Shown here: positions 1-39,327 of the stretch, in pieces
Position numbering within the stretch: the first letter of the stretch is position 1
Layout: each line of letters opens with the position of its first letter
Source: Botryllus schlosseri
Lineage: Eukaryota
DNA: 64,000 bases
Direction of reading: 5' to 3'
Assembly: GCA_051294905.1 (NCBI GenBank)
Contig: CM119371.1
Coordinates: 21,144,001-21,208,000, forward strand
The notes under the pieces: model-generated
Told to the model about the DNA's origin: nothing
The model's database searches: none
Seen by the model: the letters and a program-made list of their open reading frames with translations, nothing else
Made by a program: the position numbers and the translations under genes

Positions 1-795
1 CCAATACCGTTTTCACTTGGAAATCTATCTTTTCCCTGGGTAACAATATCATTTTCGTTTTGAAAACTGACAACCACACCGGACAATTTGATATTTTTGT
101 ATATTGTTACAACGGGTAGTGACAAAATATACACCAACAACGACTCCGATACATTTGTCTAATCAAATATTCACTTGCTCTGATGCATCCCATCAAAATC
201 ATTGGTTACTCACATACAATAACAATGTGCTGTTGTACATCGACATGTATGTTTTCGGAATTGGCGAATAAAGGGGTTTCCGATATGTCTGTGATGTCCG
301 GGTTCGTGCTTTGGATTTTCCAGAGTCAAAATGTCTGAATAAAACACCTCCTTGACTTTGGTAACTGGTTGATACACGGATAATGGTGTTCGGAAAACGG
401 ATGAATTTATGTTCCCCATCGCGCTAATAACTCCGGGTTACTTGTGAGTTTCCTCAGGTCTGTTTACTATATTGTGTCTTTACTGGTCAATACATGTCGC
501 TCCAGTCAGCTGCAACCGGATCACTAATATGAGAAAGTGTGTGGGCCTGATCCGGATATTCACTCATGAACCAACGACCAATATTCAAGTAAACATGTTA
601 CAGACCGTGTTTTGTCTCCATGAAAAATACCAATGCATACACCATCACATCAAGTACTTCACGATTGTTCACAAGTATTCGCGTAAACGAGGTGTACATA
701 CAATGTGTCGGTGTACAAACATCATGGAAAACAAATTCATGTTCTCAAGTATCATCATGCGACGACTCTGTACATTCAATGTGGGCATAGATGAC
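1..795. repeat. Left arm of long inverted repeat (pairs with 1770-2564; truncated by window start)
   Basis: Position n pairs with 2565-n. ORFs 210-419(-) and 2146-2355(+) are identical. The only difference I found is gttctcaag vs cttgggaac (FSS vs FPS in the mirrored ORFs). Confidence 0.97.
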
Positions 796-1769
796 TTGGG
801 GACAGACAAGCAGCCATATTTGGACGTAACACGATCTTAGTATGAGCCGCCTCAACCCAACTTGTGAAAAATGAATCTCACACGAGTACAACCCTTTCAC
901 TGGTTCACACCTTGATTTTGCAAGATTTTTCGGATTCTCATGTAGACTTGCATCGTGATCCAGACCTCGACTTAATCGGGTTGCGTAACTCGCTCAACCC
1001 CTGCGTATCGTTGGTCATAACCTGCTAACTTTTTCGCTGAGACCGCAGTGTTTCACCTGGTTTTATGTATTTGGTGATTACCATCGTTATCAATCTTTCA
1101 CGCGATGAATATGTCGGATGTCGCTACTCCCACATAACGACTCCAGCTAAACATCGTGAGCAGTGACTCCGGATTGAAATCGTAAACAGGGACTCTGTGT
1201 GTGTGTGTGAATCTCGAGTTCGATTACGATTAGATAATGTAATCCAGGGTGTGTCTCTGCGAGCTGAAGGCGGATTTCGTGTTAATCACACCGCAAGAGG
1301 GTGCTATCTCGTAACTCGACAGGTCAACATAAATCGCGGTTGGAAACTTTTGGTCTAGTTGATCCAGCTACGTATTGAAACGTTGTACCCACACAGCCCA
1401 TTGAGAAAACGTTGTCGTTACCTGACCATATCCACGAGTAAATATGGGACTACGCGTAACTGTCCATAGATTCCTCTGGCCCCACACCGTGGTTTTACGA
1501 CACAGACAAGATGCAGCGGTGGAAATATTGAAAATGAAAAACGATACCTTGGTGACATTTGATTTGGATTTTACACCTGATGAACCATACACTCGATTGG
1601 TACATTGGGATGACAACTCTATCGTCGAGGTCAAGGGAAAAGAAATGTACAGATTTGTTGGTGTTGTGGATATTCAGCGAAAATCAGGGTATATGGTTGT
1701 GTATGGTTCGCATATTTGACTGAGAATATATCGGTATGCATAATGCACTGTCCATGTATCATGTCGTGT

Positions 1770-2564
1770 GTCATCTATGCCCACATTGAATGTACAGAGT
1801 CGTCGCATGATGATACTTGGGAACATGAATTTGTTTTCCATGATGTTTGTACACCGACACATTGTATGTACACCTCGTTTACGCGAATACTTGTGAACAA
1901 TCGTGAAGTACTTGATGTGATGGTGTATGCATTGGTATTTTTCATGGAGACAAAACACGGTCTGTAACATGTTTACTTGAATATTGGTCGTTGGTTCATG
2001 AGTGAATATCCGGATCAGGCCCACACACTTTCTCATATTAGTGATCCGGTTGCAGCTGACTGGAGCGACATGTATTGACCAGTAAAGACACAATATAGTA
2101 AACAGACCTGAGGAAACTCACAAGTAACCCGGAGTTATTAGCGCGATGGGGAACATAAATTCATCCGTTTTCCGAACACCATTATCCGTGTATCAACCAG
2201 TTACCAAAGTCAAGGAGGTGTTTTATTCAGACATTTTGACTCTGGAAAATCCAAAGCACGAACCCGGACATCACAGACATATCGGAAACCCCTTTATTCG
2301 CCAATTCCGAAAACATACATGTCGATGTACAACAGCACATTGTTATTGTATGTGAGTAACCAATGATTTTGATGGGATGCATCAGAGCAAGTGAATATTT
2401 GATTAGACAAATGTATCGGAGTCGTTGTTGGTGTATATTTTGTCACTACCCGTTGTAACAATATACAAAAATATCAAATTGTCCGGTGTGGTTGTCAGTT
2501 TTCAAAACGAAAATGATATTGTTACCCAGGGAAAAGATAGATTTCCAAGTGAAAACGGTATTGG
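1770..2564. repeat. Right arm of long inverted repeat
   Basis: Reverse complement of 1-795; 974-bp unique spacer at 796-1769. Confidence 0.97.
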
Positions 2565-3060
2565 TACTCGGGTAAATGATAGTTTTCCAGACGAAAAGGG
2601 TTTGTTACCCAGGAGAAATGATTAGTTACTCTAGGAAAAGCTAGATGACCAAGAGAAAATGTATTGTTACACTGGGTAAACGCCAGATCTCCAAAGGAAA
2701 ATGATATTTTTACTCAGGTAAACGACGACCCACCAAGTGAAAATGGCTTGTTGCTCAGGGAAAAAGGTTTGTTACCCGGGGAAAAAGGTTTGTTGCCCAG
2801 AGAAAAAATATATTTCCAAGTGAAAAAGGTTTGTTAACCAGAGAAAAAAATATATTTCCAAGTGAAAAAGGTTTGTTACCCAGAGAAAAAATATATTTCC
2901 AAGTGAAAAAGGTTTGTTATCCAGGGAAAAAATTGATTTCCAAAGGAAAAGGGGTTTGTTACTCTGGGTAAACATCAGATCTCCAAAGGAAAATGATATG
3001 TTTAGCCAGGTAAACGACGGACTGTCAAGTGAAAGTGGTAATTTTACATAGGTAAACGTC
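2520..3060 (+). repeat. 21/42-bp periodic tandem repeat, probably a decayed coding repeat
   Basis: Units like gaaaaaggtttgttacccagagaaaaaatatatttccaagt. They translate as recurring FPSEKGLLPREK / SPKENDxFxQVND peptides broken by frameshifts in A-runs. Confidence 0.8.
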
Positions 3061-6000
3061 GTGGGTTCAGTGTCGTTGGTCTTGTTAAACGCCGCTGTCG
3101 ATGAACAAAAAAGCCGAGTTGGCGGTATATGACTACGAAGGGAGAGAATGAAATTTTTATTTTGAGTACCAGAAGGATGTTGTATGTAGATTTGACAGTA
3201 ACCCTATCATTCGCATATGACAAACACAATCATGGCCATTAACTAACTTGCTCGGTCTAGATCAACGCAAAAGAGATGATTCGTTTTTTGAAACCGTAGC
3301 GAAGACCACATGTAAATCTATGCGATGGACTTCTATCTCCTTACATTCAGTCGTGTCGTGTCCATTTTAATACGGTCCCCACGTGTATGACATGCACACA
3401 CTAACACCGTAAACAGAAGTCGATGATTTTGATTAATAAAAATATTTCTTGACTACAAGTATGTTTTGGGAAATTAAAATTTATTTTTCTGTATGTGACG
3501 AAATGAAAATAGATTCGTGGTTTTAATTGAATTGTGACTGCGTTGTTTTAATGTACGTTTCAACAGGTAGACTTGACACTGAACAACAATTCACCTCACA
3601 AAAAATGTTTGTTATATGATTTGTCACTGGTGCGCAAAGGGTTAGGAATATTTTTGTATGATAATATCTTCTAGCTGTTTTGTTGTGAGGGTAATCATGT
3701 GGTGACTCAGCACTTTTCGTTAGCAAAGTAGATTGATCTATGTGAAATATGTAAGGACGGTGACTAGAAAACATGTGTACTTTGTTGTTGGAGTACTGCT
3801 ATGGCGTTGAAATAACCCTCTGGAAGTGAGTATGCTTTTCTTTCACGAAAGTTTACGTGGCTCCGTTGTAATAAATTTGTGTTAACTAAACTCGGATGGA
3901 TACCGCAATTGTGCTGGACTTACACATGGTATTCGCATACTGTACACATACAAACTTTTGTGTAAACAACTCTGATGTTTCTGTTGGTACTAGTGCTGTG
4001 TTGAACTATTCGGTTCTTAAGACACATGAACAACCATTCAGACAATAAAGGTCTTGAGGTAACGAAACAGTTTGTAGAGTCAAACCAACCATTCTTTAGT
4101 TTCGTAATGTGAGAATATCGAGTAAAGTTGATTACTTTGTGTGATGTAAATATCTTTCGTACTTTTGTAAGAGTAGTGGGGGTCTCATGAAAAAAGTAAC
4201 TTGTTGACAAAAACAAAATATTGAATGAAGGTTCGTCTGTTGTTTTCGTAAGTCAAGAGAGTGAAAATTGTTGTTGTTGTTTTTGTTACACTAAATCGAA
4301 ATAGTGTGAAAGCGTCACCAATCATTGCGTATGTTCGTAGCATGAGCGAATATATTCGTGTACCATGAACATCTTTCATATACACTTAGTATGAAATGAG
4401 ATGCGTGGAATAATAATTAGTGTCCTACAAAAGTAAAACTTGTTGCGTTTGATTGTATACTTTATATCGATGTCTTTGTGATGTTGAAAGACAGCTGTGT
4501 TTACATTTGAATATAGTAAGCGGAGTAACTCAAGTAATAAATTTTACTCGTTTGAAAATACCGGTCAATGGAGTAACAGTATCAATATGAGTGGTAATTA
4601 TTTTTCGTGATATACAACCAATCTTCCAAGCATAACTTTTCCAAAAATCGTCGTGGCATAGTCGGCTGTTACGAATTCGAAACAAATGTACTTCGATTAT
4701 CACGATGATGGAAATTACGACCAACACAGTATTTCGTAAGTGAATGTGTATCGTTTGGTATGTTCAGCAGTCACTAAATGACAAAAATAGCAAACTGATG
4801 CAACCCGGTAGTTAAACGATACAGTTACAAGTTGGATGTAATCTTGATTTACAGATGACAGCTTGATGAGTATTGTGATGACATTTACTTTAGCGAATGA
4901 CAACGGAAAAATTTTCGATTGCATTGTCGGCGTATGTGTTACACAAATAATTCTAGTACACCTAACTATAGGATGCATTTGACAAACATCGTACAAATTG
5001 TTTCGTTGTGATGGTAACGACTTTCAGCGGTTTGGTTTCATGTCGGGAATTATTATTTGGGGGTTCAAAAACAATCAATACTACAAATGAACAACAATAC
5101 AAAACACGTTAAGTGAATTACAGCGTAGCAAGTACTTCCTTGATATCACGATTGTTGTGTACCAGACATTTCTAACTGAATTGAATGCATCTAGCAAACA
5201 TATTCCAATTTACTTTTGTAATGATCAAAGTATGTGAAAGGGTGCGAATGGATTAGGTATTAATCAAGCGGCGGTATGTCAATTCACCTAGTGTGATATC
5301 TTGACACCGGATAATGTGCGAAAGTGTTTCAATTCTCACTGCTGATTATGATGATAAAGTATTGTACCGGTTATTGTTTAACAAAGGAAATTGTTGTTTC
5401 ATCTTTAGTCTTGGTTAGTGGAGACAAATACATTTGTAAAATATTTTCTGATATCCGCGATACGCAGGGTGATATGTACCAAGGTGGAATAATTTTCCAT
5501 TCAAGGACATTTCAGACACGCATAGTTTTACAACTCAATATGTTAATAACAACGGCACTGAAAAGTTTGTTGCTGTCATAATAACCTTTACCACAACGCC
5601 GGGTCTAATTAACGCGAATAATTTAATAATCAAGTCATGATAGACCATTACAAAATCTCATATGTTAAATCGATGTGACAATCCTTATGTTTACATCACG
5701 ATAATTTTCGATACAACACCTGCGTTCGATTGTAAGAAACTACGATGGTCATACTTTCAAATGTCGTATACTCAAATATATTATGTTAATCTCAAGTCGC
5801 CGACATCGAGAAGTAATTACTTTTGTCTTACAAAATATACCGCATAGTAATTTCTTTGTCTTGCGGCATAGTAACGACTTTTACAGTTGAACAAAAAAAA
5901 AAGACGAGTTGGTGGTATATGCCTAAAACCGAACTTGATATGTTTGTGGGTTGTAGTAATTACTTGGATAGTCTTGCCTACTTTTCGTATGGACACTTTT

Positions 6001-6914
6001 TGCTTTGGTTCGGTGAGTTACAAACGGATTGACTTGACAAGGTTTTTGTATTTTACTCTTTTGTGTATGGTAAGATGTTAAAATGTTGAGATGTCATAGT
6101 GATAATATTTCTGAAACTATCTTTGCCAAACGGAAAGTCCGATCGCGAATATAGTTGTAATATTTCATTACTTGTTTCAAATCAATATGCGTATAATTTC
6201 GAAATGTGACTGGGTGAAAGTTGGTAGTTATGTTTGTCAATCTATTTCAATTCAGATTATGTCAAAGTCCTAATATTTCATTTTGGATTATCTGAATTTA
6301 CCTTTAGTACATCCCGCGAACGGATTCCGACGCCGTACTATAACATTCTTAATAATACAGGTTCGAGGATTTTCATGATAGAGTTGACAAGTGATAAGAT
6401 GCGTGTTTGTATTAAGAGTTGGATTTCAAGTTGACAAAGACAATAACTGTATAATGCACATACTTGTGATTCTTGATTCTTGTAGAGTTATAGTTGGTAT
6501 TGATTCTATAGGTGTGAAAACAGCAGCGCGAATGTGTGAATAATTCAATGTGACTGAAAGTCGGCGTCAGTAATATTCAGGTTACGGTCGAATCAAAAGA
6601 TCACGTTAAAAAGATTTCTCAAATTAGAATTGTACCGAATTAACACATTCAGATACGAATCAACTTGAGCTGTGTAGCAAGTTTCATTTCAAGTTGTCAA
6701 ATTGATGCATTGCTTGAATATTCGCATGATTCTTATCACGCAAAGTCAACGACTGTTCCAAAGTGTCAAAACATATAGCGATCGCGTGCAAGTGTCAAAT
6801 TGTTGGTTTTCGAATCACGGTCTGCGCTGGTACTGTTATTCATTACTTATTACTTGATAGTAACAACCGCCGACATATTACACTGTAGCGATTGGGATGT
6901 ATGTAATGACAAGA

Positions 6915-7241
6915 CGCGAGAAATGGCTATGTCTTTGGTGTTATCTTGTGAGCGATCGTGGGATTTGTAACCTATTTCACACGTTTTTTGAAGTGTTGGT
7001 TTGTGAACGCGGCTATTGTTGATATTCGAATCGCCGTCTACGCCGGCTCTGTGGCAAACTAATTATCAAAATATTACTTGTGCGTAATTCCTACCTTTGT
7101 AACATCAAACCACGAGAGATGGCTATTCTTATGTGTTATCTTGTGAGCGCTTGTAGAGAATATTTCACACCTTTTTGGAGTGTTAGTTTGTGAACGCGGC
7201 TATTGTTGGTATTCGAGTCACCGTCTACGCCGGCTCCGTGG
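6915..7241. repeat. Imperfect direct repeat (~6915-7054 vs ~7113-7241)
   Basis: Both copies contain atggctat...gtgttatcttgtgagcg...tatttcacac...tttgtgaacgcggctattgttg...ccgtctacgccggctc. Confidence 0.85.
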
Positions 7242-7644
7242 TAGATTTTCAGCCAAGGAATACTTGAATAATTTTGGGGATGATAAAAAAGTTAATGATA
7301 CGATTGTGCGTGCTTTTGTGAAGAGTTTGATTTCAGAGTAATAAACGAATGTGTAAATGTGTATACTTGTGATTCTTGTTGCGACTGTGAACAGCAGACT
7401 ATTCTGTAGGCGCGAAACAGCGAATAAGCCGAAAGTATTATTCAGGTAGCAATCAATAGTGAGGAAAGAGAACACGATCGGTCATTTGACACGACTGAAC
7501 TACGACATCATATATCATAATTTACGATATACACATTAGCAAAGGTTCATTCACATGACTATTTACTTGATACACATTCAACACGAAGTACGACACGCCA
7601 ACAACGTTAGCATGCGACCGATTACTATACTGAAAAGGTTTACC

Positions 7645-8034
7645 GTGCGACCACAAGACACAATAGCCGCTCGCCACCGCACCCATAAGACATAAAAGCC
7701 GCTTGCCACCCCGTGCAACTAGGACCAGCCGCTTGCGACCCCACCCATAAGAAATAAGAACCGCTTGCCGCCGCACCCATAAGACGCAATAGCCGCTCGC
7801 CGCCGCGCCCATAAGAAATAAGAGCCGCTCGCCACCCCCGGTTTTTCCAGCCGCTCGCCGCCGCGCCCATAAGAAATAAGAGCCGCTTGCCGCCGCACCC
7901 ATAAGACGCAATAGCCGCTCGCCGCCGCACCCATAAGAAATAAGAGCCGCTCGCCACCACGAGTTTTCCAGCCGCTCGCCGCCGCGCCCATAAGAGCCCA
8001 TAGCCGCATGCGACCGATCATACTAACTACTACT
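7645..8034. repeat. GC-rich ~31-bp tandem array forming the putative terminal inverted repeat
   Basis: Units ccgctcgccgccgc(a/g)cccataag(aaataaga|acgcaatag), interspersed with gccac...gttttccag units; ends in ACTACTACT. Confidence 0.85.
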
Positions 8035-11000
8035 AACCACTGCTCCATACCAGCCTCTTAAATCTGTCAATTTCCACAGATAACTCCAAAAAGTCTACCT
8101 CGTCGTCATAGGTGCTTTTAAAAGCGCTGGTGAATAAATTGTGACTTTCGCTTTGCAGCAGCGCGTGGGGATTAAAAAATCCAAACATCATTAGGTGGTG
8201 TAGGCTATGCCGGTAAACCTAGTTTGAGCTTCAAGTTTAGTTGTCACACTTGAATACCCAGACAGGCCTGCTGCTGAGCCAGCTAAAAGTAGCATAATTG
8301 GTCATGGTCATCATATAGTTAGCCAGACCCTCCGAGCGCTCAAATTTAAGAATACCGATCTTGATCGAAAGCTAATGTTAACCTGATTCCAGAAATACAA
8401 TTTAAATACTGGTATATAAATCGGCATTGTTCCGAATAATCGCTCGAAAAAATTTCCATTATCATTGTCAATTGGTCAGTGTGTTGCGGCGCTCTGATTG
8501 TCAGGAACAATCAACCTTGATGGCTATTTTGGAGTGGTTCTATTGTCATGTTAAGATATTAATTCGTGTTTTCGGAATCAGCGCGACACTAGCTTTTGAT
8601 TGAGACCAGTTTAATAAAATTTTAGCTCACGGGATGACAGCTATAGGACTACCAATTACGCTGCTTTTAGCCGGCTGTGTATACAGTACACTGTGTAGCC
8701 TCATTTTGCCGCCCCCTTGGAGCCTGCCGCCCCTGGCGCAGAGCCAGAACCGCCAAGTGCCTGCTACGCCACTGCTTCTTTGTCCAGCGGCATATATACA
8801 GATCGTGTGTATGCGTATCATGAGACGGTGTATATGCCGCAAATAACATCGAGGACAAAAATTAACTATACTTTCCTTTCCGTATTGGTGTCTTATCGGT
8901 AAGTCGAAATCAATGCCTTCGATGTGCGATTCAGCTGTCATAGTGGTGGTGGTAGATGACCGGGAAGTAGATATGTTTATAAGTCACCTCAAAGCATTAT
9001 CACCTGATGGTATAAGCGACGTAAATAGTTTCGTTATCATTTTCAGTATAGAGGCAGTGCTATTGGGCATGGACCATACGAATTAGTGTGATTAGCATCA
9101 TTGTCTCGGTATTCACGAGCTATTCACTTAATTCAAGCTGTACCTGTATACACTTGCATAGGTGTTCGTCCTATAGTGCTTTGTTTACAGTCCTAAGCTA
9201 TCCTAAAATGTCAGTTCTAACGCCCTAAACCTAAATTCTAACTCAACCCTCAGCATCAAATGGGCTATATTCGCTTGAGAACTTTATATCATCTACAAAG
9301 TAGAGGGAAAAGCATTAGGCCCTGTCAAGTCGCATGTTACAACGGCTAGAGGACGACAGATTGGGATTGGATTAGGATTACCGATATTATTCAATCTGTG
9401 GTTAAATGCGGAATTTTCATTGATACATCACGGCTCGGCCGAAAAAGCGTGATCACGTAACGCCGATACCTAGATCCTTGCGTTAAAAATCGGTGTTTGT
9501 ACAATCTCCTTCTTCACGTCCTCAAATGCATGGAGGAAAGTGTACCAGCTCATCTTTTTGAGCTTTTGATGTTCTACAATCTCAGAAGGACATTACGTTC
9601 TAAGTCACCAGATTTTTTGTCGGTGCCCATAATCATTCATCCCGTATACCTATGCAGTCCATCTTTTATTCATATCTTTGAACGTTTGTAAAAATATTTT
9701 ATTAGCCTCGAGTATTGCGCCCTATTGTAGTGATGTGTACCAGATCACACCCTTTCAGCTGGAGATAGGCCGTAAGAACACCAGAGCATGCATCGTATGT
9801 GAGTTTACACCCGTATAGTTGGAAAAAATGTACATTACGAATATACATTTTTGTCGCACTCCGTGTGACACCAATGTAAATTGGTTGAAATTCTGTTCTG
9901 CCAACCTTCAATGCTTCAGAGGTTTATCTAGGTTCCTTATATCTAACCTCATTGCCGTAGTAGTGTTTTGAACAATCCTATAGCCTAGAGTGCAGGTGAG
10001 CCGAGCCAAAAGTCGGAAGTATAGATCAAGCTACGGACGCATGAAAAACGAGAGACACCGATGGTGAAAGAGCGCGAACATGGATGTCGTCCGAAATATT
10101 GCCAAGACCTAACGACACTGATGCTTAAGGATACTGATGTTACTGTCGTAGCGCAAATGGCCTTATATATAGGCGACGACAAGCGTCACTGCTGCGTGTG
10201 AATGAAACACCACAAAAACGGAACAAATCTATTTTAAAAAATCTTTGCATTTCGCATACCCATCAAAATCGACACTGTCTGCGTGAGATGCAAAAATTTT
10301 CTCTGCGGGTGGCATGAATGCACATAGCACACCCCTGTTTTAAGCAATCGAAATCATTGTCGACTAAATGTAATTCAAAACAATGATTTTGTAGTAGCTG
10401 ATGCTTCCATAAATACAGGTGCAATGTTCGATAATGTTCAATAATAGTGACTATGTAAATTATTTGTCACACCTGAGCTAGTATTTGTACTGCATGCGAC
10501 ACAGTATTCTTTCCAATTGCGTGAGTCACGTAGTTTCACCAATCGTTACCAATAGTTACCAATAATTCAGCGATGGCAGTCCTCGAACCCGTTAAATATT
10601 AATACCGTTGTAAAATACGGAGATTTGAAGAGCTATTCTTTTTATGTGGACCAAAGGTGTTTGCGACCATGAAAACCTTTTTCAGTAGCCAATTTTATAA
10701 CTATTTGAAATCAATGAGTTTTTACGACATTTAGCAGTAAAAATGTACCGTCGCCAATAATTCTACAAGTCGGCCTACATATTATATCGATATATCGTCG
10801 TGGAAAATTATGCACCATCACAGTCAATCATTGAACTCCTTATATTGAAGATACTACCAAAACATTCAGCTTGGTGTATAATTTTAAATGTAGGTATATT
10901 TTTAACAAAATTCCATGTGAAAAATGGGGAAATTATACCAATAGCGTGCCAGTAATATCGAGACGGTAAATATAGGCGTAGCAGAATGAAACGTTCGAAT

Positions 11001-11339
11001 GCTTGAACCTAAATTGATGTGGCGGACTTCGGTGGTTTGATTTTTATGACGTCACTCCACATTTTTTATGAAGTCACTCCACATATCATTGTGACGTAGG
11101 GAACATAGATGATTTTACTCAAATCACGCATTATACGCCACTGGCCACTGGCTGCGTGACAGTCTATACTCTGGTGGTACAACTGGAGTGGTTGAAACTG
11201 AGATTGGTTCGAGGTCTACTTTCAATTTTAAGTACATCCTGTGATCTATCATTACTCGGTTTTCCGTAGAGATTGGAGTCATATGTATTTAATTTTTAAC
11301 ATCGCTCACTCATGATTCGTGTGACTCATTATCTCAACC

Positions 11340-11655
11340 CAGTGGTTCCCAACCTTGGGTCAGACACGCCACCCTTTATGATATGGAAAAAATTCGTGCC
11401 CCTCATTGTCATATCACAGAATCCATCCTTGATGCTAGCAACTCCAACAGATTGTTTGATGGCCTGGAAGGTTATAACTGTTGATGAGAGAATTTAAAAA
11501 TATGAAATTCGCTGTATATATAGAGAAACACGAGTGAATTGGAGGTAAATCGCGCAAAGCGCGAACATATTTTGACCACTTCTTCGCGGCCCCCGTTCTG
11601 AGCTTTCTCGTCCCCCTAAGGGGGGGGGGCGTGCCCACCAGGTTGGAAACCACTG
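11340..11655. mobile_element. hAT-type MITE
   Basis: TIR CAGTGGTTCCCAACC...GGTTGGAAACCACTG, flanked by ATCTCAAC(C) on both sides. Interior related to 23017-23245. Confidence 0.85.
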
Positions 11656-11908
11656 ATCTCAACCAATTATGCTGAGCTCGGAATATAACACACGGAACGA
11701 ATCGTTAATCGTTTGAACTTTAATATAATTTGATACCGTATCAAATTAAACGCGCATTGCCCCATCAACATTGAAACATCGCGTCATCATATATGATTGG
11801 TACACGTCAATGCGATATTTCAATGATATATACTACAAGTATTGATCATCTGACAAATTAGGGTTCCTTATGGGCACGGTTATTATTAAATCAGTATGAA
11901 TGAACTTG

Positions 11909-14900
11909 TCATTTCCGACCCTCGCGATATTTTATCTCTCTGTCTAGCTGACACATCGCGCATGTCTGACAGCAGCAAAGCAGACAGCAGTCATCGCAAA
12001 TAGACCCCTGCAAGAGAATGAAATTGCTTTGTATGTGACTCAATCACTTTCGAATGAGCATTTTCAATGTTTCGTACCTGAATACCATGCTTCGCTCTGA
12101 ATGCGGAACGCATTGCCAGGTGTCCGCCTGGGACACACCCATACTGATCCCCGCTGCAACCAATGCAATAGTTTTCCCCCATTCTGGTTGCAATGCATCC
12201 GTAATAAAAGCAACGACAGAAGAATACGCACAGACCTGTGAAATACACACGGGCTGTAAAGTCGATCGATCACTCATATCCTCTGTTGTAAGAGCAGTTT
12301 CGTAATCCTGCATCGCTTCATGTAGGCCTACTTCAGATAGAACGTATAGTTTCTCGGTCTCGTTGATTGTCGAGGAATGTTATTAGCTTCATTTACTTTG
12401 ATTAGAGAGTTTTCTCTGATATCATATTCCGTAACGTATTTTGTGTTTCATTTCGCTTTATATCTTACGCCTGTAGAGACTCATTACCGCAGAAATGAAG
12501 GAAATACAGAATATAGTTACGTATTCGGTATAGTGTTACGCACATTATTCATTTTTGTCAAATCACATTCGTTACCACGGTTGTACATAATATTGGTATA
12601 TTCATTTTTTCATTTTATTTTGTTCTACGGTGTCCACACAGCACCGTTTTGACGACAGTTTTAATCGTGATGTCTATGACGATTGAAACTGAGTATGGAG
12701 CGTGGAGCTAGCGGTAACTTCTATCTTTGTTTTGTGTTGAATTCCACTGGATGCTTTCACCATGATGAAGAAAGGAAGTGATTACAAATTGCAATTAAAT
12801 GTGATCCCGATCAAAGATGTGGAGATTACTGTAATATTATGCTATTCCATTATTATTTTCGCGGCGTAGGATATTCCAGGTGTTTTTTGCGAACAAGAGC
12901 CTCATAAACTTTCCAATCAGCTGTACCAATGTCAAAATCACAAAGGAAACATGAGGAACACACGCTCGGCCTAAACATAGGCATGCTTACACGATGGAAT
13001 GTCATCGCAGCAGTCACATATGTTGCTGCTCCAGATTTCCATTGTGGGACGTTGGTTCATAACCGTCACATGTTGCGGCATCATCATTGCGGGCTGCTGT
13101 GTATACACCGTGGGTTGCTGCTGTGTATACATCGGGGGTTGCTGCGTCACCACCACCCCAGGGCTATCCAGAGTTGGATATTGTTTTAGATCATGAGTCT
13201 GAAATCGAACAAAAATACCATCAGACGTATTCCGCAAGGACATCATTGACTGGAATAACATACGGATTAACCATTGTGTATTTTTAGGACCCGACCGTTC
13301 CAAATTACTTAGCGTTTAAATGCGCTTTAAGGATATTCACCGCCGAATTAAAATAAGCGGTAAAAGTCCCATTAAGCATGGTTTAGCACTGGAATTAGAA
13401 CACTTTTCTCATTACCAATTAGGGGGTTTAGAGTTTGGTATCCGAAATTGCGCTCAGTTTTGCACATCACTAATGTAATAGAAGCTTCTGTTTTGTACTG
13501 AAACCAGACTTGCATGCGATCAACTCTTCCAGACTAAATAAGATCATTATTACTAGGAATAGCAAACTATTACCGGGCTGAAACCAATCATGTCAGTTGC
13601 AATGCGATACCGATATCAGAAGGTAAAAAGTACTAGTTCTTACTAGTTCTCAACGCTTACTGGCAAATCCTGTGGAACAATTACGCTGACCTGCAGGTCT
13701 TCTTGCCACCCAAATTTTTCGCTGTGTCACGGAATAAAAAAACTACCGCACTACTCATCAAATAGTTTACTATAAATTAGTGGTGCACAAAAATCGCAGT
13801 GCATTAACGGAGTATCAAAAAAGCGAATTCAACAAAACACACTTTTCAAACAAAACCAAAATCTTATGGCGAATATTCATCCCGAACCAGATGTGATTTA
13901 TGCTGTTAGCAGTTCAAAAAGGCGGGGGGGGGGGGTTCTTTCACATTTGAGCTGATCATATTATTGTTCGGTGGGAATTCAAAAGAGCTATGCCAATTCC
14001 TCATCTACAAATGAACGGCCTTTCAGAAGTGCCAGGTTGTGATTTCGAGCCCAACCTCGCCTGCGCACACTTTTACATACGACGTATATCAACAACATTA
14101 AAAATTTGGTCCCTGAAAGCGACTAATCAGTCTAGGGCAAGTTTTTGTTGCAGTTAAATCCGTGGAAAGTTGCATTTATTTTTGAAAAAAGTTGCAGGAG
14201 TTGCATTTGACCACATTTTGCTTGGTTGACTAAAAAAAAGGTCAACTTCCCAGATTGACTAAAAAAAAGCTTTAAAAGCCGGTGCTGCTTTACGGTGTTT
14301 CAGTCGAATTTGGCCGTTTATTTCACGAGAATCGAAAATACTTTCATGAAAAATCGATAAAGTTGCAAAATGTTGCAAAAAGTTGCATGAAAAAAATTCA
14401 CAAAAGTAGCAAAAAGCTGCACTATAAGATTCCTTCAAACAGCTTGAAACAGCATTCTACATATCTTACGAGTATTTAGGAAGCTGCCGGAAGCTGTAAA
14501 AAAGTTGCAAAAGTAGCAAAAACTTGCCCTACTAATCACTAATTCTCTGTCAGTAAAGATGACCAAAACGGGGTTTATCTGGGCTCCTCCTCGCCAGCGC
14601 ATCCGAGTAAGCGGTGTCTTATTAAAGCCAGGAAGTGGACAGTGCTACAAGTCGGCAGCGACGAAATAAAGATGAAGAAAAGTGGTCCAAGTGTAAATGA
14701 AAACATACAACGGTAGTCAACAAATACCATGACTACCCCAATCAAACATACAAGAATGGCCTAGACGGCCGTATCGCTACAAATCATACGTATGTATTGT
14801 ACAGTGGTCCCTAATCTTTACGAACCCACGGAACAATCATGATAGTCTTCAGACCTTCGCGGATCCCCAAATTTACCACTATACATATCTACCTACACAT

Positions 14901-22567: not shown

Positions 22568-25500
22568 TCATTGACGTCCCTCGCGATAGTTTATCTCCCG
22601 ATCCAGCTGACACATTGTACAAGGCTGACAGAAGAAAAGTAGGCAGCAGTCATCGCAAATAGATCCCTGAAACGAAAAAAATAGATATTTCGTTTTATGC
22701 GACTAAAGAACTTTTTACGGGGTGTATCCATAGTGACGAACCTGAATTCCATGTTTGGCTCGGAATGACGCGCGCATAGCCAGGTGACCACCTGGGACAC
22801 ATCCAGATGGGTCCCCACTGCATCCGACGCAGCAGTCCTCTCCCATTCTCTTTGCGATGCACCCGTAATAAAAACAACGGCAGAAATATACGCATAAACC
22901 TGTTAATATTTGTGCGGCTTTAAAGTTTCAATCAAAATATAATAGCGACTGCTGTGGTGACTGCTTACGGTTAATCGATTGACGGTATATCGGCCAGCGC
23001 TACGTATGCAATAGGCCAGTGGTTCTCAACCTTCTTTTAGACAAGCCCCCTCCACCCCCCTTTAGAATAGTTATTATGACTGTTGATGAGAGGATTTCAA
23101 AATATGAAATTCAGTCTATATAGAGAGAATCCAGCTTGAATTGGAGGTAAATCGCACAGAGCGCAAAATATTGTTCCATTTGACCACTTGTTCGCGCCCC
23201 CTACAGATGCTTTCACGCCCCTCCCCCCCCGGTTGAGAACCACTGCAATAGGCTATAAGCTTTAACACAAACGAGTGTGCTATACGTGCACACTAATGAA
23301 GAAATGAAGTTTAAAAGGCAACATGATCTGTTATCGAATCACCGGAATCTCTCAGTACAATAGAGGTTTATTCCCCATGTTTTACAAGTAATAAATTCAC
23401 GCTTAGGAGTACAGAACTTCATGACACATTTGAATAAAATATTCATTTTATTCCCGAAGCTATTCGGCTGACCCTCGTCAGGGGAATATCGTCAGCAATA
23501 ATGCGAGGATTCGAATAACTATGTTCAGCAACAATATATATCGCTAATTATGACGTCACACGGAAAATATACAAAGTTAGGAAAACCGCGATTCTTTTAC
23601 CTTCGCTGATGAGATGCGTCGCTCACAGCTATCCGCGCGCGATAATTTCCTAGGCTCATTCGACATAAAGAGCCTTTTCACCAACGTACCACTAAATGAG
23701 ACGTTGAATATTTGCGCTGATGCTCTATATAACGGTAAGCTAATACCCCCTCCTTTCTCGAGAGCTACCTTCATGGAATTGATGAGAAACGCTGTGTGTT
23801 CTGTTGAATTTAGTTTCAACAATATCATGTTCCGACAATCTGATGGTGTAGCAATGGGATCACCATTGGGTCCTATTCTAGCCAATATATTTGTAGGATT
23901 TCATGAAGATAAGCTCTTCTCTTCTTCTATTAAACCGCCCTTATCATACCATCGCTATGTCGATGACACGTTCGTGATATTCGATAATGAATCTGACTGT
24001 GATACTTTCCTGGGAAATTTAAACAAACTACATCCAGCATTGCAATTCACGTCGGAAAAAGAAATTAACAATCGCCTGGCATTCCTTGACGTTCTTGTGG
24101 AGAAACGGGATGGAAAATTCCTTACCTCCGTTTATAGGAAGCCCACATTTTCGGGTCATTACCTTCGATGGAGCTCTTTCAGCCCAAAAAGTCGTAAAAT
24201 CAATTTAATCGGCACCTTGGTTCACCGGGCGTTGATGATTTGTTCCGAGGTCAAATTGAATAATGAACTTGACTACATCCGTAAAATTTTCATTGACAAC
24301 GGATACCCAGAGTATGTTATTAAGCGGACAATAAGTAAAAAGTTAAGTCATTGGAATGATACCAAACCAGAAGAAACCCCCGAAGTAATTTCTCGTGAAA
24401 ATAGGGATGTGTACATTCATCTTCCTTGGATTGGCCCGGTTTCTTATCGATTTGAGACACAGATAACTTCAGCAGTCTACCGCTGTTATCCAGCGGTGAA
24501 AACCAATGTTGTTTTTACCACGATACCAATGTTTCCTGCAACCCGAAAGGACGTTCTCCCGGCTATAAAACAAAGCAACGTAATTTATGAATTCAAGTGC
24601 CACTGCGATTGTCGGTACGTAGGGAGAACTTCCAAACGGTTGCAGGACCGTATCAAAGAACACATTCCACCATCTGTCAAATCTTATATCTCAAATTCGC
24701 AGCTTAACAATCCGCTTGTTCTTGAACATTACCAGGCCATGGGTCAAAAATCTTCTATAGGCAAACATTTACTAGAAAATCATACGTGTGCTGCTAACTA
24801 TCACGAGGACATGTTCTCTATATTGGCTAAGGGTCGCAATTTATTTCATTTGTCTGTTCTTGAGTCCACCATCATCACTATGAGCAAACCTAGTCTATGC
24901 CAACAGAAAGAATTTGTGTATCATTTGAAAATCGCGCATTAACTTGTTTTGCTTCGCTATCTCCATGCCAACGCTTCAGTTCTCTCGTTTTCCTAACTTT
25001 GTATATTTTCCGTGTGACGTCATAATTAGCGATATATATTGTTGCTGAACATAGTTATTCGAATCCTCGCATTATTGCTGACGATATTCCCCTGACGAGG
25101 GTCAGCCGAAAAGCTTCGGGAATAAAATGAATATTTTATTCAAATGTGTCATGAAGTAATAAATTGTTATCAACGTTGTAAGATTTTCATACGGGAAGAA
25201 TAAATATTTGAAAAATCGAGCGGAGGTCTCAAACAAGTGGCAAGCGAGAGCATTTTGTGTGGCCCGCGTCGGTATTTTGGATTTCAAGTGATCGACAATA
25301 TTTAACTCCGCATCACGTCACTTCAAAACTACTCCTAAAACTTGAAAATACACAATCAATTTCAATATCGCCCCACTTTAGGTAGGTTTATCAGCTGCCA
25401 TGCTTTGGAAGATGTACTATTCCGTCGCATTACCTGTTCATTACAATAAAACATGATCCGCTGATTATTCGTGACTGAAAATTGTGATTTTGGCTTATGC

Positions 25501-30518: not shown

Positions 30519-31404
30519 GATATAATTCGTTACAGTGGTTGGTTTGTGATCGCGAACCCATGAGCACGGCTAATATACCAAACGCTGACGTGAAGAGAAC
30601 GTTCGAGCCATTATTACAGCTCCAGTTCCTAGTAATGGACCGCTTAATCACATACGTCTTATTATAAACCTACCCAATGAACAACGGCGACCCAGACAAA
30701 GTCATCGATATTTAGAGTACAATTCCTACCTGTCGGTTACTTGCAACTAGTATGTAGACCAGTGGTTCCCAACCTTTTTCGACTCATCGCCCCCCTTTGA
30801 AGCTCCACACCGACCATCGCCCCCAAATATTGGGAACTGAAAAATGGGTATACAAACTGGGATCACCGGCGAGTTGATTAATAAAAAAGGTCAACTTTTT
30901 GGCTTGACCTCGAAATTACACTTTTACTTTCACACCTAAACGCGCAACGCGCGATTGATTTATATAATTCATGTTTGAATCGGTCAATATGGTCGGGAAT
31001 TTCATATATATTGCAGTGTTGGGATCAAGTCACTACCTACGAGTCACGAGTCATTTCGAGTCATTGCATATTCTGACTCGAGTCAAGTCAAGTCAATCGA
31101 TTTTCGAAGGTGACTCGAGTCAAGTCAAGTCACCCGATTTTTGGAGGTGACTCGAGTCAAGTCAAGGCAAGTCACGAGTCAAGTCACAATGCAAGTCAAT
31201 TTGCCTTTTCGAAGTGCGGGCATGATTAGGTCATTGCATTTTGCTAGCTGTCTGAAATACAGATTGAGTGGTCATTGATTCTGAATCGATGAACGAATGT
31301 AGAGTTAAATGTACACGCTGTATCGCTCACATTTATGTAGAACTGTTGAACTACGTAAGTACTTGCATAGCCTCAGTGAAACCAATTGATAAGATGCAAT
31401 AGAT

Positions 31405-33283
31405 CAGTGCTCTTCAACCGGGGTTGTCGTACACCCTAGGGTGTACCAGAATTTGCAAAGGGTGTACCACTCGGATGGGGTGTACAGGGGTGTACCAGAT
31501 CCGAATTACAATGAGCCGATGGCTAGCTATCACAAAGGCAGGTTTATGGGTCAGTACAGGTTGACGCACAGGTTAATGAGCAATATGGTACGATGCTATC
31601 TCAAGCGTAATACCATAGTGTCCTATATGGTGTCGACACAAGCAAATCGCACGGTTCAATGAAATTGTATCACGTCACAGTTTCCATTTGGCTACAGGCA
31701 ATTTGACGGTGATTTTTGACCGACTTGCCGAGCATCAAATTTTATAAAACGGGTATCAATCGAAAGCTGCCGCCGTACTGATTACGAAAATATAAATTTT
31801 ATTCCGCTCGCGGCCCTGGAACCCCCACAATCAGCCTCTAATTTTTCATTGTTATGGAGATTGGCATTGGGACGCAACAATGCTGTCTGGCGAAACGACA
31901 GACGCAACAATACTGTCTGGCTCCCTTTTTCTCGAGCACCTGTCTCGTTTCGCTAGACAGCATTGTTGCGTCCCAATGCCAATCTCCATAACAATGAAAA
32001 ATTAGAGGCTGATTGTGGGGGTTCCAGGGCCGCGAGCGGAATAAAATTTATATTTTGGTAATCAGTACGGCGGCAGCTTTCGATTGATACCCGTTTTATA
32101 AAATTTGATGCTCGGCAAGTCGGTCAAAAATCACCGTCAAATTGCCTGTAGCCAAATGGAAACTGTGACGTGATACAATTTCATTGAACCGTGCGATTTG
32201 CTTGTGTCGACACCATATAGGACACTATGGTAATACTGTACACCGCTTGATTGTGATGTCATAAGCAAATATTTCTCCTATTAATTTAGCCGTCAGCAAT
32301 AGACCATTGGTTCCGTTTGGTGTTGAAAAGTATGCAGTTAACAAACATGTGTTCGGCTAGTATTTGTCTTTTAGTGATTTTTGAGGAAACCGCCGCGATA
32401 GCTCAAAGTCCTTGAATCGGCACTTCCTCCCTGACGTTAATAAATACCGCAATGCACATAAATGAAGTGACGTAGCCAGCCAGGGTCGAAACAACTTCCA
32501 TGTTGAAATCGAAACCCTTTTGTTTTAAAATGCCGATTTTATGTCCAATATTTCGACATACATTTGCAATTTAGTATTTTGGTATTAATGATGCAAATTA
32601 GCGACAATAGACTGTGTATAGCGGCATACGATCTGAGGTTACTGACATCTCTTGCAGCCCATGTGCTACTATCGACTGTGTATGGTGTGGCGCAGGCCTG
32701 ATACGCAGTAGGCTGGTGCGCCTGCTATCATCGCTGATCTGAATTACCGCTTCTGCAGCAGTAGCTTTCCTACTCTCTCCCCAATACTGTTACATTTAGG
32801 TTGATTATCGTTCGTAATGCCATGCTGTTTTGGGGCTGACACGAAATAAATTACAATTTGCGTGGCGGGCGGCCTAACTGGCTGCGAATAGACTCTGTGA
32901 CCAAATACTATTTTATTCATATCCAAAATTTTTGACGGCAATAAATCCACTTCTACTGGTTGGAATTGAACCAAATTTGAAGAACATCGTTTTTATAGAC
33001 AACCTAATAATTTCATGTGGTGAACAGATAAATTTGAAATTTTTCGTTATTTATTTTTATATAATAAATAGAAACTTTCTTCTCCCGTAGCAATGCGGAT
33101 ACTGGTTGGAATTGAACCAAATTTGGTGTGTAGGCTTAAGTTAGGTAACCTAACAATTTTATCAAGTAGCCAGTACGATTTGAGAAAAAAGTCATTTTTG
33201 AAGACCCCTCATGACCAGGGGTGTACGAGTTTTGAGCAAACGTTAAAAGGGTGTACCACGTCGAAAAAGGTTGAAGAGCACTG
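31405..33283. mobile_element. hAT-type element (nest layer 3)
   Basis: TIR CAGTGCTCTTCAACC...GGTTGAAGAGCACTG; TSD CAATAGAT; GGGTGTAC subterminal repeats. Confidence 0.9.
31614..32229. mobile_element. Palindromic MITE, probable P-element superfamily (nest layer 4)
   Basis: ~280-bp near-perfect inverted arms starting CATAGTGTCC; 7-bp TSD GTAATAC. CATAG termini with a 7-8 bp TSD fit the P superfamily. Confidence 0.85.
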
Positions 33284-36006: not shown

Positions 36007-36951
36007 TCACCCTGTAACATTCACGTGAATCTTGATGTGTTTGTTCATATTTGATTTTACATTGAATGCTTTCCCACATATTTCGCAATGGTAATTCACT
36101 GCCGCATGGACGGAATAGTGTTGTTTCAGGTGAGACTTCGTCATAAAGCGTTTCCCGCATATACCGCATTCATACTTGCTCTCTTTTAAGTGGATCATCT
36201 TCGTGTGTACCTTAACGTACGACTTCGAGCGAAATGTTTTACCGCAAATGTCGCACTGATGCTGGTTTTCTCCGGTGTGAATCAGGCAGTGGTATGTTAG
36301 ATGAGATTTTTGACCGAAACTTTTCCCGCATATATCACACTCGTATGCTTTTACTCCAGAATGAATTAAATAATGTGTTTTCAAATGACTTTTAGTTGTG
36401 AAGTCTTTTCCGCATATATGACACATATATTGTTTCGCTCTGGTGTGAATCATATAATGCCTTTTCAATTCACTTTCCCGTCCAAACCCCTTTCCGCATA
36501 TACTGCAGTCAAAATATTTCATTCCGGTATGAAACAGATAATGGGTCTTCAAATGGGTGTTTGTAACGAAAGCCTTACCGCATACATCGCATTTATAGTT
36601 TTTGATTCCCATGTGTGTAGCATAATGATTTGTAAGTTGAAAATTTCGCGAAAAGGTTTTCGCACATACATTGCACTCAAACTCTTTCAGTGCGGCGTGA
36701 ATTTTCATGTGCGTTCTCATGTCAAATTTCTTGATGAAAGGTTTCCCGCATATGTCGAACTCGAACTCTTTAATTCCGGTATGAATTTTCAAATGGACTT
36801 TCATGGCATGTTTCCGGGTGAATGCTTTTCCGCAGACCTCACACATATTTTCACTGCCCTCGTCACGATGTCGCGAATTGACTCTGTCCTTCCTCACTAT
36901 GCAAGGAGACTTCGATTCTATGACTTTCATCTGATTCAATACGCCGGCCAT
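36007..36951 (-). CDS. Tandem C2H2 zinc-finger protein 1 (10 fingers, ~314 aa from first ATG)
   Basis: Ten CxxC-x12-Hx3-4H units with TGxK-type linkers; finger 2 has C>F. The frame is open to 37056 but the first ATG is at 36951. No effector domain recognised. Confidence 0.88.
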   Translation of the reverse strand: MAGVLNQMKVIESKSPCIVRKDRVNSRHRDEGSENMCEVCGKAFTRKHAMKVHLKIHTGIKEFEFDICGKPFIKKFDMRTHMKIHAALKEFECNVCAKTFSRNFQLTNHYATHMGIKNYKCDVCGKAFVTNTHLKTHYLFHTGMKYFDCSICGKGFGRESELKRHYMIHTRAKQYMCHICGKDFTTKSHLKTHYLIHSGVKAYECDICGKSFGQKSHLTYHCLIHTGENQHQCDICGKTFRSKSYVKVHTKMIHLKESKYECGICGKRFMTKSHLKQHYSVHAAVNYHCEICGKAFNVKSNMNKHIKIHVNVTG

Positions 36952-37329
36952 TCTTTGAATATCGTCGCGTTTACTTTTGCCCTTAATATAGTTTAGTACT
37001 GCAATCTCAAAAGATGACCGGAAGATTACATCTTTCCATATCACAGAGGATCGCAATGTAATATATTACACAGTCATGGAAGGTAGAATTTGCTATATTG
37101 GGCTGAATTATAGGTAGAATTATTTCAGTACGTTTCTGGTCAAATTCATGTGGAATTTTACAAGTAGGCCAAAACTAAGTGAATTGGACTTGAAGTAGTA
37201 TGCGAAGTAGTCTTGAGAGGTATTCAAGTAGTACGATCAGGAATATACATGCTAGCGACCAGCGAAGAATGACTAAAATCAATTCATGTCAATATCGCTG
37301 GCAAATATTGTGATGCTGGTCATATACAC

Positions 37330-37715: not shown

Positions 37716-38880
37716 ATATACACAGTAGCCTATATATGTCGAATATATAATTCCATGTCATTTTTCTCATGACGGGTAACGAGATATATTTTATTCCCAC
37801 TTTAGACTTGGCAAAATCTACAATGCGAAATAAATCTGGAAGAAATCAGGTAGACTATTAGAAGTGAAGGGGAAGTGCAAAAATTAGATCGCATTCGTCA
37901 AGATTTAAAAAATGATTGCCTGAACCATTCGTTCTCAAAATCGCGGTATGCCACCAACACACAAATATTGGTCGGTGCATAGTCCGAATTTCATATTTGA
38001 AAAGTGTCTGAACACCCCTAACACATTCCATGCCACCAAGCAATGCGTTGGGAGTGTGAACATTATGCAGAATGGTTGCGTATTTTTAATATCTCATTTT
38101 GATATGACAAGAAGGGGCGCGAATATTTTCACTATCATCAAGGGGATGCGTCGAAAAAAGTTTGAGAAACGCTATCCTGAAGGGTCCATTGATCACTGAA
38201 TAATAAATGTGGAATTTATGTTCGAGTTCTCTAAATTCCACTGCAACTATAGAGAGGTCTGCACTTTCACTTTTCTCTAAGCACATGAATGATACCTTCA
38301 TTTTCGGGCGCTTACTCTCCCACACTCATTACACGATCCGAAGCGGATCATAGTGAATTATTGCAAAACATATAGCCTTAAAATGCGACTAATTCTTGTT
38401 TCAACGCAATTGCTGGTTGTATTATTGTTGTAAGTAGACCGGGTTTATGTTGACAGAGATGCAATGTAGACGATACTCACTTATCAGTGTTTGAATAATA
38501 AATATAGCTCAATTATCCATTGAATGCTACAATGCTATACATGTCGATTGCGACTATTAAACCTACATAAATAACAATGCCGACCTCTCAAAAGTTTCAT
38601 TCATAGTTATTAGTTAATTCCATAGCAATCAGATAATGGTCCGTCATTGGTAGCTTTGTTCAGAATACAAATGAATATGATAATAATTTCTCTCTAGTAC
38701 AGTTCCTAATAATTATGTCATATGCATGTGGCAAACCCACTCTATTAAACATCGTCTTTTGTTGTATATTGACTACCCAATCATATTTTGAACTATAAAC
38801 ACTAGATCACAAATTCGTCGTCGCTTTAACTTGTCCTTACTGTAAGCGGTACGTTTCGAAATGACCTGTAGGCCTATTGT

Positions 38881-39327
38881 CATAGTGTCCTATATGGTGT
38901 CGACACAAGCAAATCTCACGGCTCAGTGAAATTGTATCACGTCACAATTTCCATTTGGCTACAGGCAATTTGACAGCCATTTTGACCGGCTTGCCGAGCA
39001 CTTAATTTGGTGAAACGGATATCAATCGAAAGCTGACTCTGCACTGATTACGAAAATATAAATTTCATTCCGCTCACGGCCCTGGAACCCCCACAATCAG
39101 CCTCGAATTTTTCATTGTTATGGAGATTGGCATTGAGACGCAATAATGCTGTCTGGCGAAACGAGAGAATAACGAGAGACTAACTCTCTCGTTTCGCCAA
39201 ACAGCATTGTTGCATCACAATGTCAGCCTCAATAACAATGAAAAATTCGAGGCTGATTGTGGGGGTTCCAGGGCCGCGAGTGGAATAAAATTTATATTTT
39301 CGTAATCAGTGCAGAGTCAGCTTTCGA
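38881..39327. mobile_element. Second copy of the palindromic P-like MITE, right arm truncated
   Basis: Begins CATAGTGTCCTATATGGTGTCGAC as at 31614; folds back at ~39175. Confidence 0.85.

What the first reader, a model, noticed from the sequence alone, without database searches (positions are those of the whole stretch)
1..8034. Possible giant fold-back Polinton-like element with >6 kb inverted arms
Seen: an inverted repeat centred near 1282, whose left arm is cut only by the window edge, lies in a block that ends at 8034 with a Polinton-style AGTAGTAGT terminus. Inference: if the symmetry (n pairs with 2565-n) continues, all of 1770-8034 is one arm. The element would then be a ~13.5-kb palindrome with a 974-bp spacer, i.e. 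a non-autonomous snap-back (defective-genome-like) derivative whose TIR is far longer than the usual hundreds of bp. Near-identical arms over heavily decayed coding content imply recent fold-back copying or gene conversion.
Basis: partly seen in the sequence, partly recalled or inferred. Interest (0 to 1): 0.72.

Follow-up and report, generated by a model that had tools for sequence, protein, structure and literature searches.

The report
Giant hairpin element with Polinton-like end
The mirror-image stretch is real and looks like one copy of a very abundant, hairpin-shaped mobile element in a marine animal that has an end like those of virus-like Polinton transposons, none of their recognisable genes, and one small conserved gene of unknown function in its loop.

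Summary
Arms 1-795 and 1770-2564 match at 794 of 795 bases around a 974-bp spacer, and ACTACTACT closes a GC-rich array at 8034. No genome is held, so the left end and the target-site duplication were not seen.

Public runs show a very high-copy family. In three of four runs all spacer bins lie below all arm bins. In run X5 (another study) arm contigs are about twice as deep as spacer contigs, and one spacer contig ends at the arm boundary. This fits a family-wide fold-back shape rather than an artefact or a one-off event. Both arms share at least three differences from the X5 majority, so the arms evolve in concert.

Best reading: a helper-dependent, roughly 13.5-kb palindromic Polinton satellite. 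The Polinton link rests on one terminus here. The scan noted such elements before on other DNA of this genome (AI notes, not matched by sequence). My ten literature searches found no description of this form.

The parts
1..795 (.). Inner part of the left arm, cut by the window edge; reverse complement of 1770-2564
   Evidence: 794 of 795 bases match
796..1769 (.). Unique spacer (loop), 974 bp, 44% GC
   Evidence: Mirror match at chance level inside; lower depth than the arm in runs X1, X18 and X5
1444..1719 (+). Intact 91-aa ORF of unknown family; ends 50 bp before the right junction
   Evidence: ATG..TGA with no internal stop. Full-length homologues at 99, 73, 75 and 67% identity, with stops aligned and one gap among 7 rows. 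No Pfam, PDB, Atlas or fold match
1770..8034 (.). Right arm, 6265 bp; no recognisable gene; very high copy; internally modular
   Evidence: Summed depth about 1700-4900 times that of the flank 8964-11000 in four runs (not a copy number). No family hits
2500..2962 (.). Internal tandem array of 41-42-bp units; its start is also mirrored at the window's left edge
   Evidence: Tandem Repeats Finder, self-BLAST; length variants among copies (joints)
6917..7241 (.). Two internal direct copies of a roughly 130-bp module (6917-7054, 7113-7241), 83% identical
   Evidence: Self-BLAST; contigs that skip one module (joint 6966 to 7159) in X1, X16 and X5
7651..7995 (.). Subterminal GC-rich array with a 32-bp unit
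   Evidence: 7 matches to a unit pattern against 0 in 100 shuffles
8026..8034 (-). Terminus AGTAGTAGT, of the Polinton/Maverick (AGT)n type
   Evidence: motif type as described in PMC8097293. In X1, depth at single sites falls from about 70,000 at 7460 to about 700 at 8194
8035..8040 (+). Candidate right copy of a 6-bp target-site duplication (AACCAC)
   Evidence: Inference only; the left copy lies outside the window

Best explanation
This is one recently inserted copy, cut by the window edge, of a high-copy family of non-autonomous palindromic elements of about 13.5 kb: two 6.3-kb mirror arms around a roughly 1-kb loop that holds one small conserved gene. It most likely hitch-hikes on an autonomous Polinton/Maverick. 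The AGTAGT ends would serve as origins for the helper's protein-primed polymerase and as substrates for its integrase. A displaced single strand would fold into a hairpin whose stem is the whole arm. Copying or mismatch correction on that stem would make the two arms of each new copy identical, so arms evolve in concert. SHOWN: mirror, spacer, right terminus, high copy, intact conserved loop ORF, no detectable core genes. INFERRED from read depth: two arms per spacer across the family, and arm homogenisation. INFERRED without a test here: the full left arm, a 6-bp TSD, the helper and the hairpin intermediate.
For: Arms match at 794 of 795 bases, with a sharp edge and a 974-bp unique loop. All 3 spacer bins lie below all 17 arm bins in X1, X18 and X5; X18 and X5 come from other studies than X1. 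In X5, the 7 single-contig arm depths that I could read (180-322, median 298) compare with 155 and 110 for 2 contigs in the right half of the spacer: ratios 1.9 and 2.7. X5 record 26 (1635-1799) ends at 1799, exactly where a 31-mer graph branches if the arm's first word has two predecessors (k=31 for these contigs is recalled). At least 3 differences from X5 contigs (one in 1864-2016, one at 2137, one in 2245-2436) lie where the two arms are identical. The window's letter at 2137 makes up about 8% of depth in X1, so it marks a minority subfamily and not an error. The terminus matches the commonest vertebrate Maverick end motif, which the paper links to protein-primed initiation (PMC8097293, passages). 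The predicted 13.5 kb lies within the 12.7-24.6 kb of intact vertebrate Mavericks. A racket-like single-stranded intermediate is the standing Polinton model (PMC4196379, passage).
Against: The left junction 795|796, the left end and the TSD were never seen. No strand-change joint is among the 15 of 218 joints listed, and no loose end at 8034 is among the 24 of 3319 listed. Binned arm/spacer ratios are 3.2-6.0, not 2. In X16, 4 of 17 arm bins fall below the highest spacer bin. The tool states that these depths are no copy number. No Polinton protein remnant was found, and no scan linked the terminus or array to Polinton genes. A 9-bp motif is a thin link. By-sequence look-ups of earlier findings gave 0 look-alikes, so identity with the noted families is by description only.
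Confidence: 0.68

Rival explanations
1. A family-wide fold-back element moved by a cut-and-paste DDE transposase (Galileo 2-TIR, FB or Mutator style). The AGTAGT end is coincidental, and the arms are equalised by recombination or gap repair.
For: Long, internally repetitive arms with tandem arrays are the hallmark of foldback elements. In Galileo the longest TIRs are in non-autonomous copies, and TIR length is called an unreliable classifier (PMC3573991, passages). No Polinton gene was found.
Against: Galileo TIRs reach about 1.26 kb and 2-TIR copies average 1.7-2.2 kb, far below 6.3 and 13.5 kb. The end is an (AGT)3 run, and the predicted length matches Maverick size. No transposase remnant was detected either.
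Confidence: 0.12
2. The family is an ordinary non-autonomous element, or the end region of a Polinton, and the inversion is local to this copy: a short or truncated left arm made by one template switch or nested insertion.
For: Only 795 bp of the left arm is visible, and the left junction was not seen in any listed contig. A recent local duplication also explains why both arms share subfamily letters. Lower spacer depth could reflect internal deletions or a divergent middle; X5 depths at 1264-1318 are only 44-59.
Against: The depth step and the contig end fall at the 1769|1770 boundary in runs from other studies, which a one-locus event would not cause. Of 7 loop-gene homologue records, 6 sit on contigs of 922-1192 bp, about loop size (weak, since such contigs are often near 1 kb).
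Confidence: 0.14
3. A fold-back read, amplification chimera or assembly artefact.
For: The arms are 99.9% identical, and no long read spanning both junctions was examined.
Against: There is a 974-bp unique loop with an intact conserved gene and one transition between the arms. The arm/spacer boundary shows in runs from other studies.
Confidence: 0.04

Closest known systems
Polintons/Mavericks (polintoviruses), intact vertebrate set of PMC8097293 and nematode set of PMC10748475
   Same: (AGT)n terminus; predicted total size within 12.7-24.6 kb; hairpin (racket) single-strand model of replication.
   Different: Their TIRs are 46-1447 bp or 100-1500 bp, against a predicted 6265 bp here (93% of the element). 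No pPolB, integrase, ATPase, protease or capsid match was found. They usually have low copy numbers (median 8 per genome); this family is very abundant.
Butterfly polintons with ~2-kb gene-bearing TIRs, and polB-less polintons (bioRxiv 10.1101/2025.02.07.637071, passages)
   Same: TIRs extended far inward; loss of polB with continued amplification.
   Different: Those keep core genes (hexon and adenain doubled in the TIRs). Here the arms are three times longer, carry no recognisable gene, and leave only a 1-kb loop.
Foldback-type elements: Galileo 2-TIR copies (PMC3573991, passages); FB, Tetris and Tm1 (search listing only)
   Same: Non-autonomous, almost wholly TIR, internal tandem repeats, variable modules.
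   Different: About 2 kb against 13.5 kb; P- or Mutator-type transposase; 7-bp TSD in Galileo; no AGTAGT end noted in the passages read; a conserved non-transposase loop gene here.
Hairpin/palindromic deletion derivatives of protein-primed linear replicons (Kikuchi et al. 1985, yeast 'hairpin plasmid'; only the title was seen, in a reference list; content recalled) and copy-back defective viral genomes (recalled)
   Same: One end of a terminal-protein replicon doubled into a palindrome that depends on helper enzymes.
   Different: Those are extrachromosomal laboratory or infection by-products. This is an integrated, germ-line, high-copy family with its own conserved gene.

Membership tests
Polinton/Maverick | 5'-(AGT)2 or (AG)3 terminal motif | tested here: met
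   Right end only: ACTACTACT at 8026-8034; motif definition from PMC8097293. The left end is outside the window.
Polinton/Maverick | 6-bp target-site duplication | not testable with these tools
   Left flank not held; the prediction is AACCAC.
Polinton/Maverick | TIR of about 50-1500 bp | tested here: not met
   Mirror symmetry lies 5.5-6.3 kb inside the terminus; published ranges.
Polinton/Maverick | pPolB and retroviral-like integrase genes | tested here: not met
   0 Pfam families in 6 of 6 frames of 796-8034 read with X at stops; 2 PHROG matches at E 0.21 and 0.36 only; 57 ORF pieces from 448-8057 gave no match above a curated cut-off.
Polinton/Maverick | ATPase, protease, major and minor capsid genes | tested here: not met
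   Same scans. Very decayed remnants cannot be excluded (mild excess of 50-aa frames).
Polinton/Maverick | Total length about 13-25 kb | tested here: inconclusive
   13,504 bp only if the mirror holds.
Non-autonomous Polinton derivative | Terminal sequence shared with an autonomous Polinton in the same genome | not testable with these tools
   No genome; terminus and array patterns found nothing in viral contigs. Earlier AI notes claim it for similar elements; unchecked.
Non-autonomous Polinton derivative | Many similar copies without core genes | tested here: met
   Depth three orders of magnitude above the flank in 4 of 4 runs; no core genes.
Foldback (FB/Galileo-like) transposon | Long, internally repetitive inverted arms | tested here: met
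Foldback (FB/Galileo-like) transposon | Cognate DDE transposase partner and its TSD length | not testable with these tools
   No transposase match in the element; the genome and left flank are not held.
MITE | Length usually under 600 bp | tested here: not met
   At least 8034 bp; limit quoted in PMC3573991.

The most novel reading that the evidence does not exclude
An old, self-standing class of Polinton satellites rather than degraded debris. These would be helper-sized, almost wholly palindromic DNAs, maintained across related hosts, replicated as giant hairpins by the helper's protein-primed polymerase and perhaps packaged in its capsid. Their one conserved loop protein (a new family) would act on the helper's replication or packaging, as satellite or defective-interfering elements do. 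Their concerted arm evolution would be a genomic footprint of the racket-shaped single-stranded intermediate proposed for Polintons.
Probability: 0.3. Interest if true: 0.85.

Novelty: new variant of a known kind. Interest (0 to 1): 0.6.

Why it matters
Polinton replication in animals is a model drawn from sequence, with a proposed single-stranded racket intermediate. A large family of gene-poor palindromes whose two arms stay equal while copies diverge would make that model testable by arm-versus-copy trees and by looking for free hairpin DNA. It would stretch the known TIR range about fourfold and show that Polinton ends can support an abundant satellite, although Mavericks are usually rare. 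It would also add a small protein family with no known relative. Many 13-kb perfect palindromes matter too for genome stability and for assembly, where they can be mistaken for artefacts.

Tried and rejected
Own genome: not held, so the upstream flank, TSD, copy count and helper search were impossible.

Collection scans that found nothing: viral contigs with terminus, spacer and array patterns and two protein queries; metagenome contigs; genome contigs. Rfam on 1-12000 gave 0 matches.

Loop protein: no longer homologue among proteins of 143-2000 and 173-2000 aa (weak evidence by the tool's own note). No Atlas hit. No PDB sequence match better than E 1.1. Best Pfam E 0.11. The AlphaFold model is unusable (pLDDT 37), so its Foldseek list (best E 0.04) was disregarded. 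P0002 (E 1e-5, a repeat protein matching 22 residues) was dropped as chance and left out of the alignment. The ORF's length alone is not beyond chance (24% of shuffles reach it); the case for it is homology. No dN/dS was possible, as no DNA of the homologues was available.

Coding origin of the 41-42-bp array: not supported, since the best-scoring unit is 41 bp.

Adenovirus panhandle repair as a precedent: only reference titles were found, so it is not cited as support.

Literature searches (open-access library only) listed no paper describing wholly palindromic Polinton derivatives. Most listed papers were seen as title and abstract start only. Repbase and subscription journals were not searched, and no supplements were read; supplements may hold such elements.
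Full report
OBSERVATION. Window 1-795 is the reverse complement of 1770-2564, with one difference (745/1820, a transition), and the left arm runs off the window. The spacer is 796-1769. Inside it the mirror match is at chance (120 of 487), so the edge is sharp. ACTACTACT occurs once in the window, at 8026-8034, just after a GC-rich 32-bp array at 7651-7995. The motif alone would be expected 0.75 times in the window, but only 0.0006 times in a given 50 bp. If the mirror continues, the arm is 6265 bp, the element 13,504 bp (93% arms), and the left end lies at -5469. No genome is held, so this extension was not seen. The host is an animal: the window holds C2H2 zinc-finger frames and a reverse transcriptase frame. 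Earlier AI notes call it a sea squirt; I did not check this.

A HIGH-COPY FAMILY. Of 24 listed runs, 21 hold part of 796-10000. I laid 4 of them on 756-11000: X1 (best holder, possibly the source sample), X16 and X18 (same organism label, other studies) and X5 (another label and study). Median arm depth, leaving out the two array bins, is 1733 to 4862 times the median of the six flank bins. The tool warns that summed contig depth is no copy number, so I take from this only that the block is very abundant. In X1, depth at listed sites drops from about 70,000 at 7460 to about 700 at 8194, which brackets the terminus. Contigs skip or repeat internal modules (for example 6966 to 7159 in three runs), so the arms vary in length among copies.

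IS THE FOLD-BACK SHAPE FAMILY-WIDE? Three signs say yes.
(1) All 3 spacer bins are shallower than all 17 arm bins in X1, X18 and X5; in X16, 4 of 17 arm bins are lower.
(2) In X5, where the family collapses into few contigs, the 7 single-contig arm depths I could read have a median of 298, against 155 and 110 for two contigs in the right half of the spacer: ratios 1.9 and 2.7. Two arms per loop predict 2.
(3) X5 record 26 runs from 1635 to 1799 and stops where a 31-letter-word graph must branch if the arm's first word has two predecessors (k=31 recalled). It is one contig, and one letter short of the tool's bridging rule, so I do not count it as a bridge.
Against: binned ratios are 3.2-6.0; arm bins vary several-fold among themselves; no strand-change joint is among the 15 of 218 joints shown; and the left junction was not seen. 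A one-locus event or an artefact would not put a boundary at 1770 in other studies' data, so I rate those rivals low.

ARMS EVOLVE TOGETHER. The window differs from X5 contigs at one site in 1864-2016, at 2137 and at one site in 2245-2436. The two arms are identical throughout these stretches. At 2137 the window's letter is about 8% of depth in X1, about 4% in X16 and absent from X18 and X5. A substitution arises in one arm first, so the arms were equalised after these changes arose, or the inversion itself is younger than they are (the local-duplication rival). One arm-to-arm difference in 795 bases suggests a recent insertion (inference).

CODING CONTENT. Six frames of 796-8034, read with X at stops, gave no Pfam family and only two PHROG matches at E 0.2-0.4. 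In 3070-7600 the longest open frame equals shuffles (110 vs 108 aa); frames of 50 aa or more are mildly in excess (32 vs 22.8, 2 of 300 shuffles). 'Heavily decayed coding content' is therefore unproven.

The spacer holds an intact ATG-to-TGA frame of 91 aa at 1444-1719. A full-library search returned 2 proteins, one a 91-aa homologue (E 1.5e-39) and one a chance repeat that I dropped. A word search returned 4 of 5 candidates, at 99, 73, 75 and 67% identity with full coverage. All 7 aligned rows end at the same residue, 6 of 7 start at the same methionine, and there is one internal gap. That is the pattern of a selected gene, although dN/dS could not be computed. Of 7 homologue records, 6 lie on contigs of 922-1192 bp and one on 2005 bp, which fits a loop bounded by collapsed arms but is weak. 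No family, structure or longer form was found. My guess, at low confidence, is a small beta-rich DNA- or helper-binding protein that favours the element's own copying or packaging.

MECHANISM. Vertebrate Mavericks end mostly in (AGT)2, a repeat tied to protein-primed initiation; they have 6-bp TSDs, TIRs of 46-1447 bp and sizes of 12.7-24.6 kb (PMC8097293, passages). The standing model has a single-stranded racket intermediate copied by pPolB and then integrated (PMC4196379, passages). An element that doubles one end region keeps both origins and both integrase sites while needing no genes. Its displaced strand would fold into a 6.3-kb stem with a 1-kb loop, and copying or repair on that stem would equalise the arms. 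Only the loop is single-copy, and that is where the gene sits. The helper, the TSD and the intermediate are inferred. The Polinton link tested here is one terminus plus a fitting predicted size.

COMPARISON. The element fails membership as an autonomous Polinton (no core genes, arm far beyond the TIR range) but probably works through one. The nearest published cases I read are butterfly polintons with ~2-kb gene-bearing TIRs and polB-less copies (bioRxiv 10.1101/2025.02.07.637071, passages) and Galileo 2-TIR copies, with TIRs up to about 1.26 kb (PMC3573991, passages). Polinton TIRs are given as 100-1500 bp in PMC10748475 (passages). A review of giant transposons (PMC6431247, passages) showed no such form in the passages seen. 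The yeast hairpin plasmid precedent is recalled; only its title was seen. Ten searches of the open-access library listed no description of wholly palindromic Polinton derivatives.

EARLIER NOTES. Fourteen AI notes on other DNA of this genome describe whole 11-17-kb palindromes with Polinton-type ends, some with 6.2-6.6-kb arms, roughly 0.9-kb spacers, a 6-bp TSD, hundreds of copies and an autonomous partner. One further note describes a conserved 91-aa loop protein. My homologue hit came before I saw the notes on the gene. The notes raised my belief in the full left arm and supplied the 'satellite' wording, but they are leads, not support. Three by-sequence look-ups returned no look-alike, so the match is by description only.

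VERDICT. A real feature, most likely an edge-cut copy of a family of giant palindromic, helper-dependent Polinton-ended elements with one conserved loop gene (0.68). Rivals: local inversion 0.14, transposase-driven foldback 0.12, artefact 0.04. New variant of a known kind; interest 0.6.

Noticed in passing
window 31607-32236 and 38875-39327: A small fold-back repeat: 292-bp arms, 99% complementary, 46-bp spacer, with a roughly 90% related copy whose spacer is 16 bp. No match to 1-8300. An earlier AI note (e1-7803759) describes a giant palindrome with a 46-bp spacer in this genome; any link is untested.
   Followed up: no
window 23416-25157: A 453-aa reverse transcriptase frame (23581-24942, Pfam RVT_1 E 3.8e-08) between 171-bp inverted arms, 99% complementary. 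The C-terminal part looks like a GIY-YIG nuclease as in Penelope elements (recalled, not tested).
   Followed up: partly
window 36007-37065, 45826-46923, 54321-55124 (minus strand): Three C2H2 zinc-finger array frames forming a local cluster.
   Followed up: no
window 8280-8963: The right flank is itself a high-copy repeat in all four runs laid, so the element sits in or beside another repeat; near-unique DNA starts at about 8964.
   Followed up: no
window 3104-3135 and 5894-5925: A 32-bp direct repeat within the arm (88% identical); an X18 contig joins 5896 to 3115, suggesting rearrangement between these modules in other copies.
   Followed up: no
window 31047-31198, 48263-48400, 49083-49181: Related short tandem arrays built on an AGTCA-rich unit, probably parts of one dispersed repeat family.
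   Followed up: no
run X16 over window 1782-7595: Depth in X16 is far more uneven along the arm than in the other runs, and near zero in the unique flank. The run's kind is not on record; if it is RNA, parts of the arm may be transcribed.
   Followed up: no
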